Shown: piece by piece, positions 10,597-17,311 of the stretch
How positions within the stretch are numbered: position 1 is the stretch's first letter
Layout of the letters: each line of letters begins with the position of its first letter
NCBI GenBank assembly: GCA_024403355.1
Contig: JAKSRW010000014.1
Span: 1 to 32,000, forward strand
Direction of reading: 5' to 3'
Source of the DNA: Lachnospiraceae bacterium
GTDB lineage: Bacteria > Bacillota > Clostridia > Lachnospirales > Lachnospiraceae
Length of the DNA stretch: 32,000 nt
Notes under the pieces: model-generated
Database searches by the model: none
Seen by the model: the letters and a program-made list of their open reading frames with translations, nothing else
Told to the model about the DNA's origin: nothing
Program-made: the position numbers and the translations under genes

Positions 10597-11475
10597 ATGG
10601 ATATTAGTATGGTCGAAAAGAAAAAGAAAGGAAAAGGGAAAACCGTCTTTATAATCGTTTGGATTGCGCTGATAGCGGGGCTTCTGGCGGCGATTTTTCT
10701 GCTGGGGCTGCCGGAAGGTGAGAGCGAGAGCATAAAGGTTATAATGAAGGACGGGGTTCTGCATGAAACGAACCGGATAAGCCTGTTCGGACTGATTGAG
10801 GTCAATCCGGGACTGATTTCCGCATATGTTGTGACGGCGGTACTTCTGCTGGCGGCAATTTTAATCAGGATATTTGCCATACCTAAATTCAAATATACGC
10901 CCGGAAAATTCCAGATTGTGATAGAAAAAGCAGTAGAATTTTTCTCGGACATGGCAAAAACAAACAGCCCACACAAAACGGGCTTCGTAGCAGCATATAT
11001 ATTCAGCGCGGGTGCATACATATTTTTCAGTACACTTTTTGAGCTGATAGGAATGCAGTGGATTACCACAAAGGGCAATCCCATAGCGCTTCCGGCACCG
11101 CTTGCGGATATTAATGCGGCGATAGCGATGGGTGTAATGTCATACGTAGTTATACTCGGGGCAGGCATTATTTCGAACGGAATTAAGGGCGGACTGAGGG
11201 TCCTGAAGGATTTTTCACTTCCGATTTCGATGAGCTTCCGTCTCTTCGGTGCTCTTTTGAGCGGTCTGCTGGTCACTGAGCTGGTATATTATTTTGTATC
11301 ACTCAGCTTCGTGCTTCCGGTAATTGTGGGCGTGCTTTTTACAATTTTGCATGCACTGATTCAGACATACGTGCTGGCGACACTTGTTTCCACCTTCTAC
11401 GGTGAGGCGGTAGAGCCGCCAAAGCCCAAGGAAGCAAAGGCCTCTGAAGCAGATGAAAATGCTGAAAAGAGCTAG
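10597..11475 (+). CDS. atpB: F-type ATP synthase subunit a (divergent)
   Basis: Multi-TM protein with the essential Arg motif in the form SFRLFGALLSG, and IQTYVLATLVSTFY in the last helix. It is the first gene of an a-c-b-alpha-gamma-beta-epsilon cluster. The ATG at 10609 is an alternative start. Confidence 0.8.
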   Translation: MDISMVEKKKKGKGKTVFIIVWIALIAGLLAAIFLLGLPEGESESIKVIMKDGVLHETNRISLFGLIEVNPGLISAYVVTAVLLLAAILIRIFAIPKFKYTPGKFQIVIEKAVEFFSDMAKTNSPHKTGFVAAYIFSAGAYIFFSTLFELIGMQWITTKGNPIALPAPLADINAAIAMGVMSYVVILGAGIISNGIKGGLRVLKDFSLPISMSFRLFGALLSGLLVTELVYYFVSLSFVLPVIVGVLFTILHALIQTYVLATLVSTFYGEAVEPPKPKEAKASEADENAEKS

Positions 11476-11596
11476 TCTTTGCAAAGAGCAGACCAGTCTT
11501 AAAGCATTTTCGCTCTTAGCATGAGGCTGGGGATGAAAAATATTTTTAGATAAATAAGTGCCCGTGCTCCAAACTATGTGCTGCGGGTAGAAAGGG

Positions 11597-11983
11597 ATGG
11601 TTATTATGAAATTAGTTAAGAAATTTTCAGTTTTATTGGTTCTTTTGATGGTTATGACAATTGGTTTTACATTTACCGCAAAGGCTGTTGCGGCAGATGA
11701 GGATGCGGTAGTTACCGCAGAGGCTGCAGAGGCAGCGGAGGCTGAGGCAGAGGATGGTTCAAAGGGCAGCAAGGCTATTGCGGCAGCTATCGTAGTAGGT
11801 CTTGCGGCAGCAGCCGGTGCACTCGGTATGGGTATTGCGGTAGGAAAAAGTACAGAGAGCATGTCGCGTCAGCCCGAGGCAGCCGGAAAGATTAATTCCT
11901 CGATGATGCTCGGCCTGGTATTTATCGAGACAGCTATTATTTATGCACTTATCATTGCGATTCTGATTATTTTCGTATTGTAA
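11597..11983 (+). CDS. atpE: F-type ATP synthase subunit c with an N-terminal signal-peptide-like extension and acidic tail
   Basis: The C-terminal 75 aa form a classic c hairpin (GALGMGIAVGK...SRQPE...LGLVFIETAIIYALI). The N-terminal 50 aa read KLVKKFSVLLVLLMVMTIGFTFTAKA, then VAADEDAVVTAEAAEAAEAEAED. The start could be 11597 or 11606. Confidence 0.8.
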   Translation: MVIMKLVKKFSVLLVLLMVMTIGFTFTAKAVAADEDAVVTAEAAEAAEAEAEDGSKGSKAIAAAIVVGLAAAAGALGMGIAVGKSTESMSRQPEAAGKINSSMMLGLVFIETAIIYALIIAILIIFVL

Positions 11984-12041
11984 TGTAAACAGCTTATTTA
12001 GCAGATTGTTCTGACTATTTACATCAGAAAAGAGGGAAAAT

Positions 12042-12539
12042 ATGCCGTTAAATATTGATCTTGTGCAGATTTTACTGCACATGCTGAATTTTGTAATACT
12101 TGCCGGCGGACTCACGCTTATCCTTTTTAAGCCTGTGAGTAAGTTTCTGGCAGAGCGCAGGGAGTATTTTGAGAAGCTCGAGAAGGAACATGCCGAAATG
12201 TCTGAGGAAAACGCGAAGATGAAGGCTGAATATGAGCAGAAGATGGAGGAGACAAAGGCAGAGATTAGCGAGCTTCGCAAGCAGTCCGAAAAGGAGGCTG
12301 CGGACGCGGCAAAGGCCTATATTGATGCGGCTAAGGAGCAGGCTGCCAATATTATTAAGACTGCCGAAAAGGACGCCGAGGACAGAAGAAGCCATATTCT
12401 GGATTCTGCCCAGACCGAAATCAGCGAGCTGGTAATCGAGGCAACCCAGAAGCTTCTCAGCGAGACCGCTTCTGCGGAGCGCAGCCGTGCACTTTATGAC
12501 GAATTCATTGTAAATGCTGAAAAGGATACGAAGAAATAA
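12042..12539 (+). CDS. atpF: F-type ATP synthase subunit b
   Basis: RBS agaggga. One N-terminal TM helix followed by a long charged coiled-coil rich in E, K and A. Its position lies between c and alpha. Confidence 0.8.
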   Translation: MPLNIDLVQILLHMLNFVILAGGLTLILFKPVSKFLAERREYFEKLEKEHAEMSEENAKMKAEYEQKMEETKAEISELRKQSEKEAADAAKAYIDAAKEQAANIIKTAEKDAEDRRSHILDSAQTEISELVIEATQKLLSETASAERSRALYDEFIVNAEKDTKK

Positions 12540-12571
12540 GCATTTTACCGAGAAAGATGTGGTTATAAATC

Positions 12572-15322: not shown

Positions 15323-16725
15323 GTGAAGAAAGATTAAATAAAGGACTTATAGCAGGTGTAAACGGACCCGTAGTCGATGTTCGCTTCAAAAAGGGCGAGC
15401 TTCCCAAAATCCGTGAAGAACTCTTTGTTATGCTTGGAAAAGAAAAAAGAGTAATGGAGGTCTCACAGCATATAAATTCAGAGCTAGTGCGCTGCATTAT
15501 GCTCGGTGCGAGCGAAGGACTGCACAGGAATCTGGAGGTAACGGCTACCGGCTCACCCATCATGGTGCCCGTAGGCGAGAATGTTCTGGGCAGACTTTTT
15601 AACGCTCTTGGCGATACAATGGACGGTAAGGAGGAGATTCCTTCGGATGCTCCCAGACGAAGCATTTACTGTCCCGCACCCGACTATGCGGAAAGAAAAA
15701 ATACCGAAGAAATTCTCGAGACCGGCATCAAGGTCATTGATCTGCTTGCTCCCTACGCAAAGGGCGGTAAAATCGGACTTTTCGGTGGCGCAGGTGTAGG
15801 AAAGACCGTGCTTATTCAGGAGCTTATCCATAATATTGCGACCGAGCACGGCGGATATTCGGTGTTTACCGGTGTCGGAGAACGTAGCCGTGAGGGTAAC
15901 GACCTCTGGATGGAGATGCAGGAGAGCGGTGTCATCAGCAAGACCGCGCTTGTATTCGGTCAGATGAACGAGGCGCCCGGCGTGCGTATGAGGGTAGCCC
16001 TTACAGGTCTGAGCATGGCTGAGCATTTCCGTGACGATACACATAAGGATGTACTTCTTTTTATTGACAATATTTTCCGTTACATTCAGGCGGGTTCGGA
16101 GGTTTCGACACTTCTGGGCCGAATGCCCTCTGCGGTAGGCTATCAGCCCACTCTGGCTAATGAGCTCGGTGAGCTTGAGGAGCGAATCGCTTCTACAAAG
16201 AGCGGTTCCGTAACTTCTGTTCAGGCAGTTTACGTGCCTGCGGACGATTTAACCGACCCTGCTCCCGCGACTACCTTCGCCCACCTTGATGCGACCACGG
16301 TTCTCAGCAGAAAGATTGCCGAAATCGGTATTTATCCGGCGGTAGACCCCTTAGAGTCTTCATCCCGTGTGCTGGAGCCGGATATTGTCGGCGAGGAGCA
16401 TTATGATGTGGCAAGACGTGTCCAGGAGACCCTCGAGCACTATGCGGAGCTGCAGGATATTATAGCGATTCTCGGTATGGATGAGCTTTCTGAGGAGGAC
16501 AAGCTGACCGTATATCGTGCGAGAAAAATTCAGAGATTCCTCTCGCAGCCCTTTAGTGTTGCGGAAAAATTTACCGGTGTCAGCGGCGTGTATGTACCTC
16601 TTTCAGAAACCATCAGAGGCTTTAAGGCCATCGTAGACGGTGAAATGGATGATTATCCCGAGCAGGCATTTTTCAATGTAGGAACCATTGATGATGTAAT
16701 TGCGAAGGCCCAAAGTTTGAAATAA
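15319..16725 (+). CDS. atpD: F-type ATP synthase beta subunit
   Basis: ATGA start/stop overlap with atpG. Walker [16 protein letters not shown] loop, [13 protein letters not shown]. Confidence 0.95.
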
Positions 16726-16748
16726 ATTTCAAACTAAAAGATTGGTGC
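16713..16748 (+). repeat. Direct repeat copy A, containing the palindrome GTTTGAAAT-AA-ATTTCAAAC and overlapping the atpD stop codon
   Basis: aagtttgaaataaatttcaaacta (24 nt) is identical to 16805-16828, and agattggtgc follows in both copies. The period is 92 nt. Confidence 0.85.
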
Positions 16749-16804
16749 AAAAGGCGCACCAATCTACTCCATGAGCAACTCATTACATTCGTTGCATTAG
16801 GAGG

Positions 16805-16840
16805 AAGTTTGAAATAAATTTCAAACTATGAGATTGGTGC
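16805..16840 (+). repeat. Direct repeat copy B in the beta-epsilon spacer
   Basis: See copy A. The string gagcaactcatt is also duplicated (16773-16784 and 16844-16855). Confidence 0.85.
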
Positions 16841-16870
16841 GAAGAGCAACTCATTGCACCAAAAGAAAAA

Positions 16871-17311
16871 ATGAAGGAAGGCAGATTAGTGAACAGCTTT
16901 AAATTGTCAATTTTATCGATGGATAAGCCATTTTATGTGGGTGACTGCGTCTCGCTTGTAGTACCTGTGAGCGACGGAATGCTGGGTATACAGGCCAATC
17001 ATCCTCCCATGACGGCTGCGGTACGGGCGGGAATTGTATCGTTTACACTTCCGGACGGTACACGCAGGGAGTGCGTGGTATCCCGCGGCATAGTCGATAT
17101 TTCTAAAAATGATCCGCGAATTCTTTGTGAAACAGTAATGGATCCCGATGAGGTCGATGAGGAAATGGCCAGACGTGCCCTCGAGGAGGCTCAGATAGCC
17201 CTCGATGAAGAAAAAGGCCGCAAGGACTACATCATTTCCCAGCAGGCATTTGCGAACGCATTTAACAGTCTTAAGGTAAAACAGCACCGTGCCATGAAGA
17301 CCAATAACTGA
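16871..17311 (+). CDS. atpC: F-type ATP synthase epsilon subunit
   Basis: Beta-sandwich N-domain pattern (LSILSMDKPFYVGDCVSLVVPVSDGMLGIQANHPPM) plus a helical C-domain. GTG at 16889 is the more likely start, lying 7 nt after AAGGAAGG. Confidence 0.8.
   Translation: MKEGRLVNSFKLSILSMDKPFYVGDCVSLVVPVSDGMLGIQANHPPMTAAVRAGIVSFTLPDGTRRECVVSRGIVDISKNDPRILCETVMDPDEVDEEMARRALEEAQIALDEEKGRKDYIISQQAFANAFNSLKVKQHRAMKTNN

What the first reader, a model, noticed from the sequence alone, without database searches (positions are those of the whole stretch)
10597..17311. Two F-type ATP synthase operons within 20 kb; the complete one is the divergent one
**The two operons.** Operon 1 (plus strand, 10597-17311) has the classical order a-c-b-(delta')alpha-gamma-beta-epsilon. 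Operon 2 (minus strand, 29076 to beyond 32000) shows canonical alpha-gamma-beta-epsilon with tight spacing and strong RBSs. The two beta subunits share long identical blocks, so they are paralogues rather than assembly duplicates.

**Unusual traits of operon 1.**
- There is no atpI.
- The a subunit has an extra N-terminal TM segment and a charged C-terminal tail.
- The a subunit has RLFGALLSG where RLFGN..AG is almost invariant, so the Asn is replaced by Ala.
- The c subunit has a presequence.
- Delta is fused to alpha.
- A 145-nt structured spacer lies before epsilon.

**What it is not.** It does not have the N-ATPase gene order (beta-epsilon-Q-R-a-c-b-alpha-gamma), it has no atpQ/atpR, and its c subunit has no double-carboxylate site. 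It is therefore not the known N-type second ATPase. It may be a distinct accessory F-type enzyme with a different ion or a different direction of operation.
Basis: partly seen in the sequence, partly recalled or inferred. Interest (0 to 1): 0.62.

Follow-up and report, generated by a model that had tools for sequence, protein, structure and literature searches.

The report
Proton and sodium ATP synthases side by side
This rumen or gut Clostridia bacterium carries two complete ATP synthases, an ordinary sodium-type one and a proton-type one of a distinct lineage that has half of its delta subunit fused to every alpha subunit, a design that gave up to three stator stalks when engineers built it in 2025.

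Summary
Both operons are real, but the title claim is an artefact of the window edge. Operon 2 continues to contig position 36407 and is complete (AtpZ, AtpI, a, c, b, a free full-length delta, alpha, gamma, beta, epsilon).

Operon 2 has a sodium-type c subunit (GIGEG...AETTGIY). Its best matches among solved structures are the sodium-specific c rings of A. woodii, I. tartaricus and F. nucleatum.

Operon 1 is intact. It belongs to a separate clade of Clostridial F-ATPases in which delta is fused to alpha: on the alpha tree, fused and canonical alphas split with 100/100 support. Only the delta C-terminal domain remains here. The fusion aligns collinearly with the engineered deltaDeltaN-alpha enzyme (PDB 9JC1). 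Its c subunit lacks the sodium ligands, so it is probably proton-coupled.

The other oddities are lineage-wide: the c signal peptide with an acidic tail, the extra helix in a, and Asn to Ala beside the essential Arg. The beta-epsilon spacer is a strain-specific 92-nt duplication.

Operon 1 is not an N-ATPase.

27 of 28 carriers have a second rotary ATPase. This genome lacks Rnf and Ech, so the published two-circuit model does not transfer directly.

Multiple stalks remain untested.

The scan has noted this fusion before on other DNA, and it has been mentioned in print.

The parts
10597..11475 (+). Operon 1 subunit a (292 aa). It has an extra N-terminal transmembrane helix behind a Lys-rich N-terminus, the essential Arg in RLFGALLSG (Asn to Ala), and a charged C-terminal tail.
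   Evidence: Pfam ATP-synt_A scores 67.8 bits against a cut-off of 33.9, but the protein falls below every NCBIfam subunit-a cut-off. Its best solved relative is chloroplast subunit a. RLFGAL(L/I)SGL occurs in 46 of 46 informative group-A relatives, against RLFGNVLGAF or a close variant keeping the Asn in 26 of 26 group-B relatives. The N-terminal helix and the Lys-rich tail are conserved.
11597..11983 (+). Operon 1 subunit c precursor (128 aa). It consists of a signal-peptide-like segment, an acidic Ala/Glu linker, and a c hairpin with Met at the Q32-equivalent position and E-T-A-I-I-Y in helix 2, which is a proton-type site.
   Evidence: Pfam ATP-synt_C matches residues 61-124. The best solved matches are the H+ rings of Spirulina c15 and chloroplast c14. 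Met at the Q32-equivalent is found in 51 of 51 sequences (50 relatives plus operon 1). An AxA-like cleavage site is found in 49 of 51. The linker has a median length of 20 aa with 7 acidic and 0 basic residues.
12042..12539 (+). Operon 1 subunit b (165 aa), the only b gene of the operon.
   Evidence: Pfam ATP-synt_B scores 52 bits against a cut-off of 28. The protein is below all NCBIfam b cut-offs.
12572..14362 (+). deltaDeltaN-alpha fusion (596 aa). The delta C-terminal domain covers about residues 15-90 (about 12614-12841), followed by a short linker and a complete alpha from about residue 95.
   Evidence: OSCP profile positions 99-171 of 172 match residues 15-87, and atpA TIGR00962 scores 698.7 bits against a cut-off of 484. 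The protein aligns collinearly with the engineered fusion 9JC1 chain I (query 28-593 to chain 13-576), with a single one-residue gap at the linker. There is no in-frame ATG, GTG or TTG between codons 60 and 119. Thousands of homologues of about 595 aa exist.
14411..15322 (+). Operon 1 gamma (303 aa).
   Evidence: TIGR01146 scores 233.5 bits against a cut-off of 194.45. It is 32% identical to the operon 2 gamma.
15319..16725 (+). Operon 1 beta (468 aa). It overlaps gamma by 4 nt. The Walker A motif GGAGVGKT and the DELSEED motif are intact.
   Evidence: TIGR01039 scores 783 bits against a cut-off of 462.85. It lies in the group-A clade (SH-aLRT 99), outside 32 canonical Bacillota betas.
16726..16870 (+). 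Beta-epsilon spacer. It is a 92-nt-period tandem duplication that includes the last 13 nt of atpD, and it contains short palindromes.
   Evidence: The direct repeat 16713-16751 / 16805-16843 is 92% identical, and several 10-nt perfect hairpins are present. Relatives have a median beta-epsilon gap of -4 nt. No Rfam family matches.
16871..17311 (+). Operon 1 epsilon (146 aa from the ATG). The GTG at 16889, preceded by GAAGGAAGG, is a likelier start. The regulatory C-terminal helices are present.
   Evidence: TIGR01216 scores 73.1 bits against a cut-off of 67.25, and Pfam DE_N and DE both match. The start-codon reading comes from the sequence.
29076..32000 (-). Operon 2, the distal part inside the window: epsilon (29076-29477), beta (29498-30889), gamma (30914-31771) and the 3' end of alpha (31789 onward). 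The operon continues on the contig to 36407 with delta, b, c (Na+ type), a, AtpI and AtpZ.
   Evidence: ORFs are. Pfam finds OSCP positions 2-172 of 172, ATP-synt_B, C, A and I, and ATPase_gene1. The c subunit best matches the Na+ rings 4BEM, 1YCE and 3ZK1 and carries E32, E65, T66, T67 and Y70.

Best explanation
The contig carries two complete, functional F1Fo ATPases that divide the work by coupling ion.

**Operon 2 (shown and inferred).** It is the canonical enzyme: AtpZ-AtpI-a-c-b-delta-alpha-gamma-beta-epsilon. Its c ring has all the ligands of a Na+ site of the F. nucleatum two-carboxylate type. It most likely works with the Na+-pumping decarboxylase found in the genome.

**Operon 1 (shown).** It belongs to a separate, single-origin clade of Clostridial F-ATPases in which delta is covalently fused to the N-terminus of alpha. 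In the branch that contains operon 1, the symmetry-breaking N-terminal domain of delta has been lost. Every alpha therefore carries its own b-docking delta C-terminal domain.

**Operon 1 (inferred).** Its c subunit lacks the Na+ ligands, so it is probably H+-coupled.

**Other derived traits of this branch (shown).**
- The c subunit is made with a cleavable signal peptide that exports an acidic N-terminal tail.
- Subunit a has an extra N-terminal helix.
- Subunit a has Ala instead of Asn next to the essential Arg.

**Multiple stalks (inferred, about one chance in three).** The fusion is collinear with the engineered Bacillus PS3 deltaDeltaN-alpha enzyme, so the native complex may bind more than one b2-a stator. 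That would raise the H+/ATP ratio.

**Role in this genome (inferred).** The genome has no Rnf, Ech, cytochrome bd, V-ATPase or H+-pyrophosphatase. The enzyme most likely runs as an ATP-driven proton pump for membrane potential and pH homeostasis, or harvests a small proton gradient supplied by Mrp/Na+-H+ exchange and product efflux.
For: **Completeness**
- Both operons are complete and intact.

**Ion assignment**
- The operon 2 c subunit has GIGEG...AETTGIY. Its best matches are A. woodii 4BEM, I. tartaricus 1YCE and F. nucleatum 3ZK1.
- The operon 1 c subunit best matches Spirulina and chloroplast H+ rings.
- Met at the Q32-equivalent is found in 51 of 51 clade sequences. The T67-equivalent is Ala, Leu, Val or Gly in 50 of 51.

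**Fusion**
- The match to the OSCP profile covers positions 99-171 only.
- The N-terminus aligns to the second half of the free delta and to the full-length delta-alpha fusions of Pseudobutyrivibrio.
- The protein is collinear with 9JC1 chain I.
- There is no internal start codon that would give a plain alpha.

**Clade**
- On the alpha tree, canonical and fused alphas split with 100/100 support.
- On the beta tree, group A is supported at 99.
- 53 loci share the architecture.

**Link to the published two-synthase case**
- P. ruminis AD2017 has a fused-alpha operon with an H+-type c subunit. It also has a canonical operon with a Na+-type c subunit and a free delta.
- This matches the H+ and Na+ ATP synthases reported for that species (PMC11026938, PMC11187502).

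**Engineered precedent**
- The engineered enzyme forms up to three stalks and three a subunits, with an H+/ATP ratio of 5.8. Natural fusions are named in the Discussion (PMC12229609).

**Genome context**
- OAD_beta is present.
- An Mrp-like cluster and two CPA exchangers are present.
- RnfD, the Ech 49-kDa subunit, V_ATPase_I, H_PPase and cytochrome bd were not found in a genome that is 94.7% complete.
Against: - Ion specificity is inferred from motifs only, and no assay exists for this clade. Thr next to the Glu (the ET motif) is kept in operon 1.
- No data show how many stalks or a subunits the native enzyme carries. Expression levels of a and b could limit it to one.
- The engineered enzyme lost stalks easily and was slower.
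- The free delta of operon 2 is present in the same cell and might interact with the operon 1 F1.
- The genome is incomplete at 94.7%, so the absence of Rnf or Ech is not proven.
- The relationship between the deltaDeltaN branch and the full-length-delta branch is unresolved (AU p = 0.47).
Confidence: 0.7

Rival explanations
1. Operon 1 builds an ordinary single-stalk H+ F1Fo. Only one of the three delta C-domains binds a b2 dimer and the other two stay idle. The fusion is merely a way to secure the stator, or a neutral gene fusion, and the H+/ATP ratio is set by the c ring alone.
For: - Full-length delta-alpha fusions exist in Pseudobutyrivibrio, Butyrivibrio and Agathobacter. There the N-domain should still limit the enzyme to one stalk.
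- P. ruminis membranes show normal H+-dependent ATP synthase activity (PMC11026938).
- The operon has one a gene and one b gene, with no sign of raised dosage.
- In the engineered enzyme most particles had fewer than three stalks.
Against: - In the engineered enzyme, removing the delta N-domain and fusing the C-domain to alpha was enough to recruit extra stalks and a subunits.
- The natural linker has the same length as the engineered one to within one residue.
- The N-domain was lost repeatedly within the fused clade (L068 and L079 besides group A), which suggests selection for its loss.
Confidence: 0.45
2. Operon 1 and operon 2 form the two arms of the published 'two respiratory circuits' scheme. 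In that scheme Ech makes a proton gradient used by the H+ synthase, and Rnf makes a sodium gradient used by the Na+ synthase.
For: - P. ruminis, B. fibrisolvens and A. ruminis have both kinds of operon plus Ech-type and Rnf genes.
- The scheme is described for butyrivibrios in PMC11026938 and PMC11187502.
Against: - This genome has no RnfD and no Ech 49-kDa subunit.
- Among 28 carriers of the operon 1 type, only 4 have the Ech marker, while 22 have RnfD.
- The operon 1 type is therefore not tied to Ech.
Confidence: 0.1
3. Operon 1 is a decaying, non-functional or recently transferred extra copy, and operon 2 does all the work.
For: - Subunits a and b fall below all NCBIfam cut-offs.
- The Asn next to the essential Arg is lost.
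- A duplication separates beta from epsilon.
- Family labels are scattered on the tree, which points to horizontal transfer.
Against: - All seven ORFs are intact, with the catalytic and ion-binding residues kept.
- The same derived features are fixed across more than 50 loci from many Clostridia families.
- In 13 of 28 carriers it is the only F-type enzyme.
Confidence: 0.03
4. Operon 1 is an N-type (alternate F1F0) ATPase.
For: It is a second, divergent F-type operon without a free delta gene, as in N-ATPases (PMC2881411).
Against: - The gene order is a-c-b-alpha-gamma-beta-epsilon, not beta-epsilon-Q-R-a-c-b-alpha-gamma, and there is no atpQ/atpR.
- The alt_F1F0 models score 580.5 against 750.5, 586.9 against 752, 79.8 against 282, 21.4 against 100, 34.1 against 131 and 37.5 against 225.
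- The c subunit has one carboxylate.
- A delta C-domain is present in alpha.
Confidence: 0.01

Closest known systems
Engineered deltaDeltaN-alpha fused FoF1 of Bacillus PS3 (Ueno et al., Nat Commun 2025, PMC12229609; PDB 9JC1), and the natural fusions named there (Acidaminococcus fermentans; UniProt G4Q3K6 and A0A1I2C5T3)
   Same: - The delta N-domain is absent and the delta C-domain is fused in frame to the N-terminus of alpha.
- There is no separate delta gene in the operon.
- The protein is collinear over its whole length, and the linker length matches to within one residue.
   Different: - Operon 1 is natural and belongs to a large Clostridia clade.
- It has extra derived features: a c subunit with a signal peptide and acidic tail, subunit a with an added helix and Asn to Ala, and an intact epsilon C-domain.
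- Stalk number and H+/ATP ratio are unknown here.
- I did not test whether the A. fermentans operon belongs to the same clade.
The H+ and Na+ F1Fo ATP synthases of Pseudobutyrivibrio ruminis (Schoelmerich et al., PNAS 2020, read through PMC11026938 and PMC11187502)
   Same: - One genome holds a canonical operon with a Na+-type c subunit and a free delta.
- The same genome holds a second operon with an H+-type c subunit and delta fused to alpha.
- All fused alphas form one clade.
   Different: - P. ruminis keeps the full-length delta in the fusion, a short c subunit without a presequence, and RLFGN in subunit a.
- It has Rnf and Ech. This genome has neither.
- The primary paper was not held in the library, so I could not check whether it mentions the fusion.
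Na+-translocating F-ATPases with solved c rings: Fusobacterium nucleatum (3ZK1, two-carboxylate site), Ilyobacter tartaricus (1YCE), Acetobacterium woodii (4BEM)
   Same: The operon 2 c subunit aligns without gaps and carries the ligand set E32, E65, T66, T67 and Y70.
   Different: This applies to operon 2 only. The operon 1 c subunit has Met and Ala at two ligand positions.
N-ATPase (Dibrova et al. 2010, PMC2881411)
   Same: It is a second F-type operon beside the housekeeping one, with no free delta gene.
   Different: The gene order, the absence of atpQ/atpR, the c-subunit site and all HMM cut-offs differ.
Mycobacterial b-delta fusion (for example PDB 7JG5 chain d)
   Same: It is another natural covalent fusion involving delta in the peripheral stalk. 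It appears as a weak hit to the delta-like segment.
   Different: There delta is fused to b and keeps its N-domain. The stoichiometry stays at one per enzyme.

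Membership tests
F-type (F1Fo) ATP synthase | Catalytic alpha3beta3 with gamma and epsilon of the F type | tested here: met
   atpA scores 698.7 against 484.45, atpD 783 against 462.85, gamma 233.5 against 194.45 and epsilon 73.1 against 67.25.
F-type (F1Fo) ATP synthase | An Fo with subunit a carrying the essential Arg, a c hairpin with the ion-binding carboxylate, and subunit b | tested here: met
   Pfam ATP-synt_A, C and B are all above their cut-offs. The Arg lies in RLFGA and the Glu in FIETAIIY. Subunits a and b are below the NCBIfam equivalog cut-offs, so they are divergent.
F-type (F1Fo) ATP synthase | One free delta (OSCP) subunit with an N-terminal and a C-terminal domain | tested here: not met
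   Operon 1 has no delta gene. Only OSCP positions 99-171 of 172 are present, fused to alpha. Operon 2 meets this feature.
deltaDeltaN-alpha fused (multi-stalk design) FoF1 | The delta N-domain is absent and the delta C-domain is fused in frame to the N-terminus of alpha | tested here: met
   Shown. No internal start codon could release a plain alpha.
deltaDeltaN-alpha fused (multi-stalk design) FoF1 | More than one b2 stalk and more than one a subunit per complex, with a raised H+/ATP ratio | not testable with these tools
   This needs cryo-EM, quantitative subunit stoichiometry or equilibrium-pmf measurements, as in PMC12229609.
Na+-translocating F-ATPase | The c-subunit ligand set: Q/E32, E65, S/T66, T67 and Y70 (I. 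tartaricus numbering) | tested here: not met
   Operon 1 has M, E, T, A and Y at these positions, and Met is found in 51 of 51 clade sequences. Operon 2 has E, E, T, T and Y and meets the feature.
N-ATPase (alternate F1F0) | Gene order beta-epsilon-Q-R-a-c-b-alpha-gamma with atpQ/atpR | tested here: not met
   The order is a-c-b-alpha-gamma-beta-epsilon with no extra small membrane ORFs.
N-ATPase (alternate F1F0) | Scores above the cut-offs of the TIGR03305, TIGR03324, TIGR03323, TIGR03166, TIGR03322 and TIGR03321 models | tested here: not met
   All six models score far below their cut-offs.
Two-circuit bioenergetics (Rnf and Ech with Na+ and H+ ATP synthases) | One H+-type and one Na+-type F1Fo in the same genome | tested here: met
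   Shown by c-subunit motifs. This is an inference from sequence, not an assay.
Two-circuit bioenergetics (Rnf and Ech with Na+ and H+ ATP synthases) | Both the Rnf and the Ech ion pump are present | tested here: not met
   PF03116 and PF00346 give no match in the genome, which is 94.7% complete. Both are found in P. ruminis, B. fibrisolvens and A. ruminis.

The most novel reading that the evidence does not exclude
Operon 1 encodes a natural multi-stator F-ATPase, with two or three b2-a stators around one c ring. The c-ring centre carries a crown of exported acidic tails. This would give an H+/ATP ratio about two to three times that set by the ring alone. A fermenter without any respiratory proton pump could then make ATP from, or hold, a very small proton gradient, while a separate Na+ enzyme serves the sodium cycle.
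Probability: 0.3. Interest if true: 0.85.

Novelty: new variant of a known kind. Interest (0 to 1): 0.55.

Why it matters
**Stalk number.** Textbook F-type ATP synthases have exactly one peripheral stalk and one a subunit, because the delta N-domain occupies the three-fold axis. A widespread natural clade has deleted that domain and fixed the rest of delta to every alpha. That makes it the obvious place to look for natural multi-stator rotary motors. It would also test directly whether organisms tune the ion/ATP ratio by stator number rather than ring size.

**Physiology.** The pairing with a Na+-type enzyme in gut and rumen fermenters matters for how these abundant organisms budget ATP.

**Open questions raised by the derived features.** The c subunit with an exported acidic tail, the Asn-to-Ala change next to the essential Arg, and the extra helix in subunit a have not, to my knowledge, been described. 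Each gives a concrete structural or biochemical question.

Tried and rejected
- **Primary paper.** Schoelmerich et al. 2020 is not held in the library. Its content was taken from two later papers.
- **Structured RNA.** An Rfam scan of 10300-17700 found nothing inside the operon, only a T-box leader downstream. The promoter and terminator scans were no better than shuffled sequence.
- **Internal start.** An internal translation start that would release a plain alpha was rejected. There is no ATG, GTG or TTG between codons 60 and 119.
- **Clade relationships.** The beta tree did not resolve whether the deltaDeltaN branch and the full-length-delta branch are sisters. The alpha tree joins them with 100/100 support but leaves their internal order open (AU p = 0.47).
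- **Pseudogene, N-ATPase and assembly-duplicate readings.** All three were rejected.
- **V-type ATPase as a third enzyme.** None was found in this genome.
- **Structure prediction.** None was run, because the HMM match and the collinear alignment to 9JC1 already settle the identity of the domain.

Full report
**1. What is in the sequence**

The window is the first 32 kb of a 79.7-kb contig. The genome is 3.0 Mb and 94.7% complete.

Operon 1 lies on the plus strand and holds seven intact ORFs:

| Gene | Coordinates | Length (aa) |
|---|---|---|
| a | 10597-11475 | 292 |
| c | 11597-11983 | 128 |
| b | 12042-12539 | 165 |
| fused alpha | 12572-14362 | 596 |
| gamma | 14411-15322 | 303 |
| beta | 15319-16725 | 468 |
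| epsilon | 16871-17311 | 146 |

Pfam recognises every subunit above its cut-off. NCBIfam places alpha, beta, gamma, epsilon and c above the ordinary F-type cut-offs. Subunits a and b fall below every equivalog cut-off, so they are divergent.

Operon 2 lies on the minus strand. It shows epsilon, beta, gamma and the end of alpha inside the window.

**2. The title claim fails: operon 2 is also complete**

Reading the contig beyond base 32000 gives the rest of operon 2:
- alpha (509 aa)
- a free delta (179 aa)
- b (176 aa)
- c
- a (254 aa)
- AtpI
- an AtpZ-like gene, ending at contig position 36407

Pfam confirms each of these, including a full-length OSCP match covering positions 2-172 of 172.

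The two operons are old paralogues, not an assembly duplicate. Identities are beta 68%, alpha 57%, c 43%, gamma 32%, epsilon 27%, b 26% and a 24%.

The genome also has FliI and a third, F1-like alpha/gamma/beta cluster on another contig.

**3. Coupling ion**

The operon 2 c subunit best matches the Na+-specific rings of A. woodii (4BEM), I. tartaricus (1YCE) and F. nucleatum (3ZK1). It aligns to them essentially without gaps, apart from one 2-residue gap near the C-terminus against 3ZK1. It has GIGEG in helix 1 and AETTGIY in helix 2. This is the full ligand set, with the second carboxylate seen in F. nucleatum.

The operon 1 c subunit best matches the H+ rings of Spirulina c15 and chloroplast c14.
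- At the position of I. tartaricus Q32 it has Met.
- At the position of T67 it has Ala.
- Met is found in 51 of 51 sequences of its clade. The T67 position is Ala, Leu, Val or Gly in 50 of 51.

I infer that operon 2 is Na+-coupled and operon 1 is H+-coupled. This rests on motifs, not on an assay.

**4. The fusion**

Residues 15-87 of the operon 1 alpha match only the last 73 positions of the OSCP profile. The N-terminus aligns to the second half of the free delta of operon 2.

Searching the solved structures gives normal alpha subunits from residue 98 onward. The one exception is PDB 9JC1 chain I, described as 'ATP synthase delta subunit, ATP synthase subunit alpha'. It aligns as a single stretch from residue 28 to 593. 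In the N-terminal 159 residues the alignment has a single one-residue gap, located at the linker.

9JC1 is the engineered Bacillus PS3 enzyme of Ueno et al. 2025 (PMC12229609).
- The authors fused delta residues 105-178 to alpha after deleting the N-domain.
- Its H+/ATP ratio was 5.8.
- The Discussion names Acidaminococcus fermentans and two UniProt entries as natural look-alikes. It calls a multi-stalk structure 'highly likely' for the first, pending experiment.

In operon 1 there is no in-frame ATG, GTG or TTG between codons 60 and 119. A plain alpha is therefore unlikely to be made.

**5. A coherent clade with further derived features**

The fused alpha has thousands of homologues of about 595 aa. 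Eighty loci were fetched from species-representative genomes, and they fall into two groups.

Group A comprises 53 loci with 70-81% alpha identity. These are rumen and gut MAGs labelled Lachnospiraceae, Oscillospiraceae, Acutalibacteraceae, Ruminococcus or Clostridia. Group A shares the whole operon 1 architecture:
- **c subunit.** It has a hydrophobic signal-like segment, an AxA-like site in 49 of 51 sequences, and an acidic linker with a median of 20 aa, 7 acidic and 0 basic residues.
- **a subunit.** It has a Lys-rich N-terminus, an extra helix and a Lys-rich C-terminal tail. RLFGAL(L/I)SGL occurs in 46 of 46 informative sequences.

Group B comprises 27 loci with about 60% alpha identity. 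It includes Pseudobutyrivibrio ruminis AD2017, Butyrivibrio fibrisolvens 16/4, Agathobacter ruminis and Lachnospira.
- A full-length delta is fused to alpha, giving about 671 aa.
- The c subunit is short and H+-type, and subunit a has RLFGN.
- Two members (L068, L079) have independently lost the delta N-domain.

The N-terminal helix of c forms the inner ring in all solved c rings (established knowledge). The acidic tails should therefore emerge at the ring centre on the outer face, clear of the a subunits. This is an inference.

**6. Phylogeny and distribution**

On a careful alpha tree of 53 sequences, the canonical alphas and all fused alphas separate with 100/100 support. The order within the fused clade is open: monophyly of the deltaDeltaN forms is not rejected (AU p = 0.47).

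On the beta tree, group A is a clade with SH-aLRT 99. It lies outside a cluster of 32 canonical Bacillota betas that contains operon 2 and the P. ruminis canonical beta.

The group-A subunit a was found as follows:
- in 8 of 120 genera sampled from the organism's own family
- in 20 of 398 other Clostridia genomes, spread over 14 of the 82 families sampled

Family labels are scattered on the tree, which suggests horizontal transfer or old paralogy with loss.

Of 28 carriers:
- 15 also have a canonical alpha.
- 12 of the other 13 have a V-type subunit I.
- Only one has no second rotary ATPase.

**7. Link to the published two-synthase case, and its limit**

Rumen butyrivibrios are reported to encode one H+ and one Na+ ATP synthase, working with Ech and Rnf. 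Both activities were measured in P. ruminis membranes (PMC11026938, PMC11187502, citing Schoelmerich et al. 2020, which the library does not hold).

I confirmed this at the sequence level for P. ruminis AD2017:
- The canonical operon has a free delta and a Na+-type c subunit (GIGQG...AVAETTGLY).
- The second operon has the fused alpha and an H+-type c subunit.

P. ruminis, B. fibrisolvens and A. ruminis all carry Ech-type and Rnf markers.

The present genome has neither marker. It also lacks V-type subunit I, H+-pyrophosphatase and cytochrome bd. It does have:
- a Na+-decarboxylase beta subunit
- an Mrp-like antiporter cluster with four MrpD-like subunits
- two CPA exchangers

Among the 28 group-A carriers, only 4 have the Ech marker and 22 have RnfD. 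The operon 1 type is therefore not tied to Ech.

In this organism the proton enzyme has no visible respiratory partner. It most likely hydrolyses ATP to pump protons, or it uses a small gradient supplied indirectly. That step is inference.

**8. Smaller points**

- The beta-epsilon spacer is a 92-nt tandem duplication that includes the last codons of atpD and several perfect 10-nt hairpins. Relatives have overlapping genes, with a median gap of -4 nt. It matches no Rfam family. Its effect is unknown.
- Epsilon probably starts at the GTG at 16889, behind GAAGGAAGG.
- Operon 1 has no atpI.

**9. Verdict**

The kind is partly known. The dual H+/Na+ synthases were published in 2020, and the natural deltaDeltaN-alpha fusion was mentioned in 2025. 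This scan has also reported the fusion repeatedly on other genomes.

What this case adds:
- the single-origin fused clade
- the set of fixed Fo peculiarities
- the near-universal co-occurrence with a second rotary ATPase
- the absence of Rnf and Ech in this genome

Whether the native enzyme has several stators is the open and interesting question.

Noticed in passing
L017, L018, L019, L024, L033, L037 (relatives, not the window): In six group-A relatives, gamma has no stop codon and runs in frame into beta, giving 786-831 aa. The two are joined by a variable low-complexity linker of 10-60 aa. The beta ATG and an SD-like motif are kept inside the fused ORF. These six form a fully supported subclade on the beta tree. 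A rotor-stator fusion should block continuous rotation unless it is cleaved, or unless beta is made mainly from the internal start.
   Followed up: partly
own genome, contig C20:17173-20701 (L006/L007): This is a third, F1-like cluster: alpha-like (440 aa), gamma-like (262 aa) and beta-like (457 aa). All are below the cut-offs of atpA/atpD and of the Mycoplasma F1-like families. No Fo genes were seen nearby, and large membrane or secreted ORFs flank the cluster.
   Followed up: partly
window 17365-17607 (+): A T-box leader (RF00230, 101.6 bits against a cut-off of 93) lies upstream of the methionyl-tRNA synthetase gene. The long GTG-started ORF from 17582 therefore probably begins further downstream.
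   Followed up: no
own genome, contig C1:164089-172254 (L172): An Mrp-like cation/proton antiporter cluster holds MrpB-like and MrpC-like genes and four consecutive MrpD/MrpA-like subunits (509, 487, 490 and 657 aa). No hydrogenase or oxidoreductase module is attached.
   Followed up: partly
L062-L088, for example L073 (P. ruminis AD2017) 6752-8767: A full-length delta is fused to alpha (about 671 aa) in Pseudobutyrivibrio, Butyrivibrio, Agathobacter and Lachnospira. This puts three complete deltas on one F1, although only one N-domain can sit on the axis. Two members (L068, L079) have lost the N-domain independently.
   Followed up: partly
alpha tree, operon 2 alpha at contig C6:31789-33318: The canonical alphas of the organism's own family fall into two well-supported subclades. 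Operon 2 groups with canonical alphas from four other families, not with the P. ruminis-type canonical alphas. The Na+ operon may therefore also have moved horizontally.
   Followed up: no
window 16871-16891: The annotated epsilon ATG has a weak A-rich leader. A GTG 18 nt downstream follows a strong GAAGGAAGG motif and would give a 140-aa epsilon, closer in length to those of relatives.
   Followed up: no
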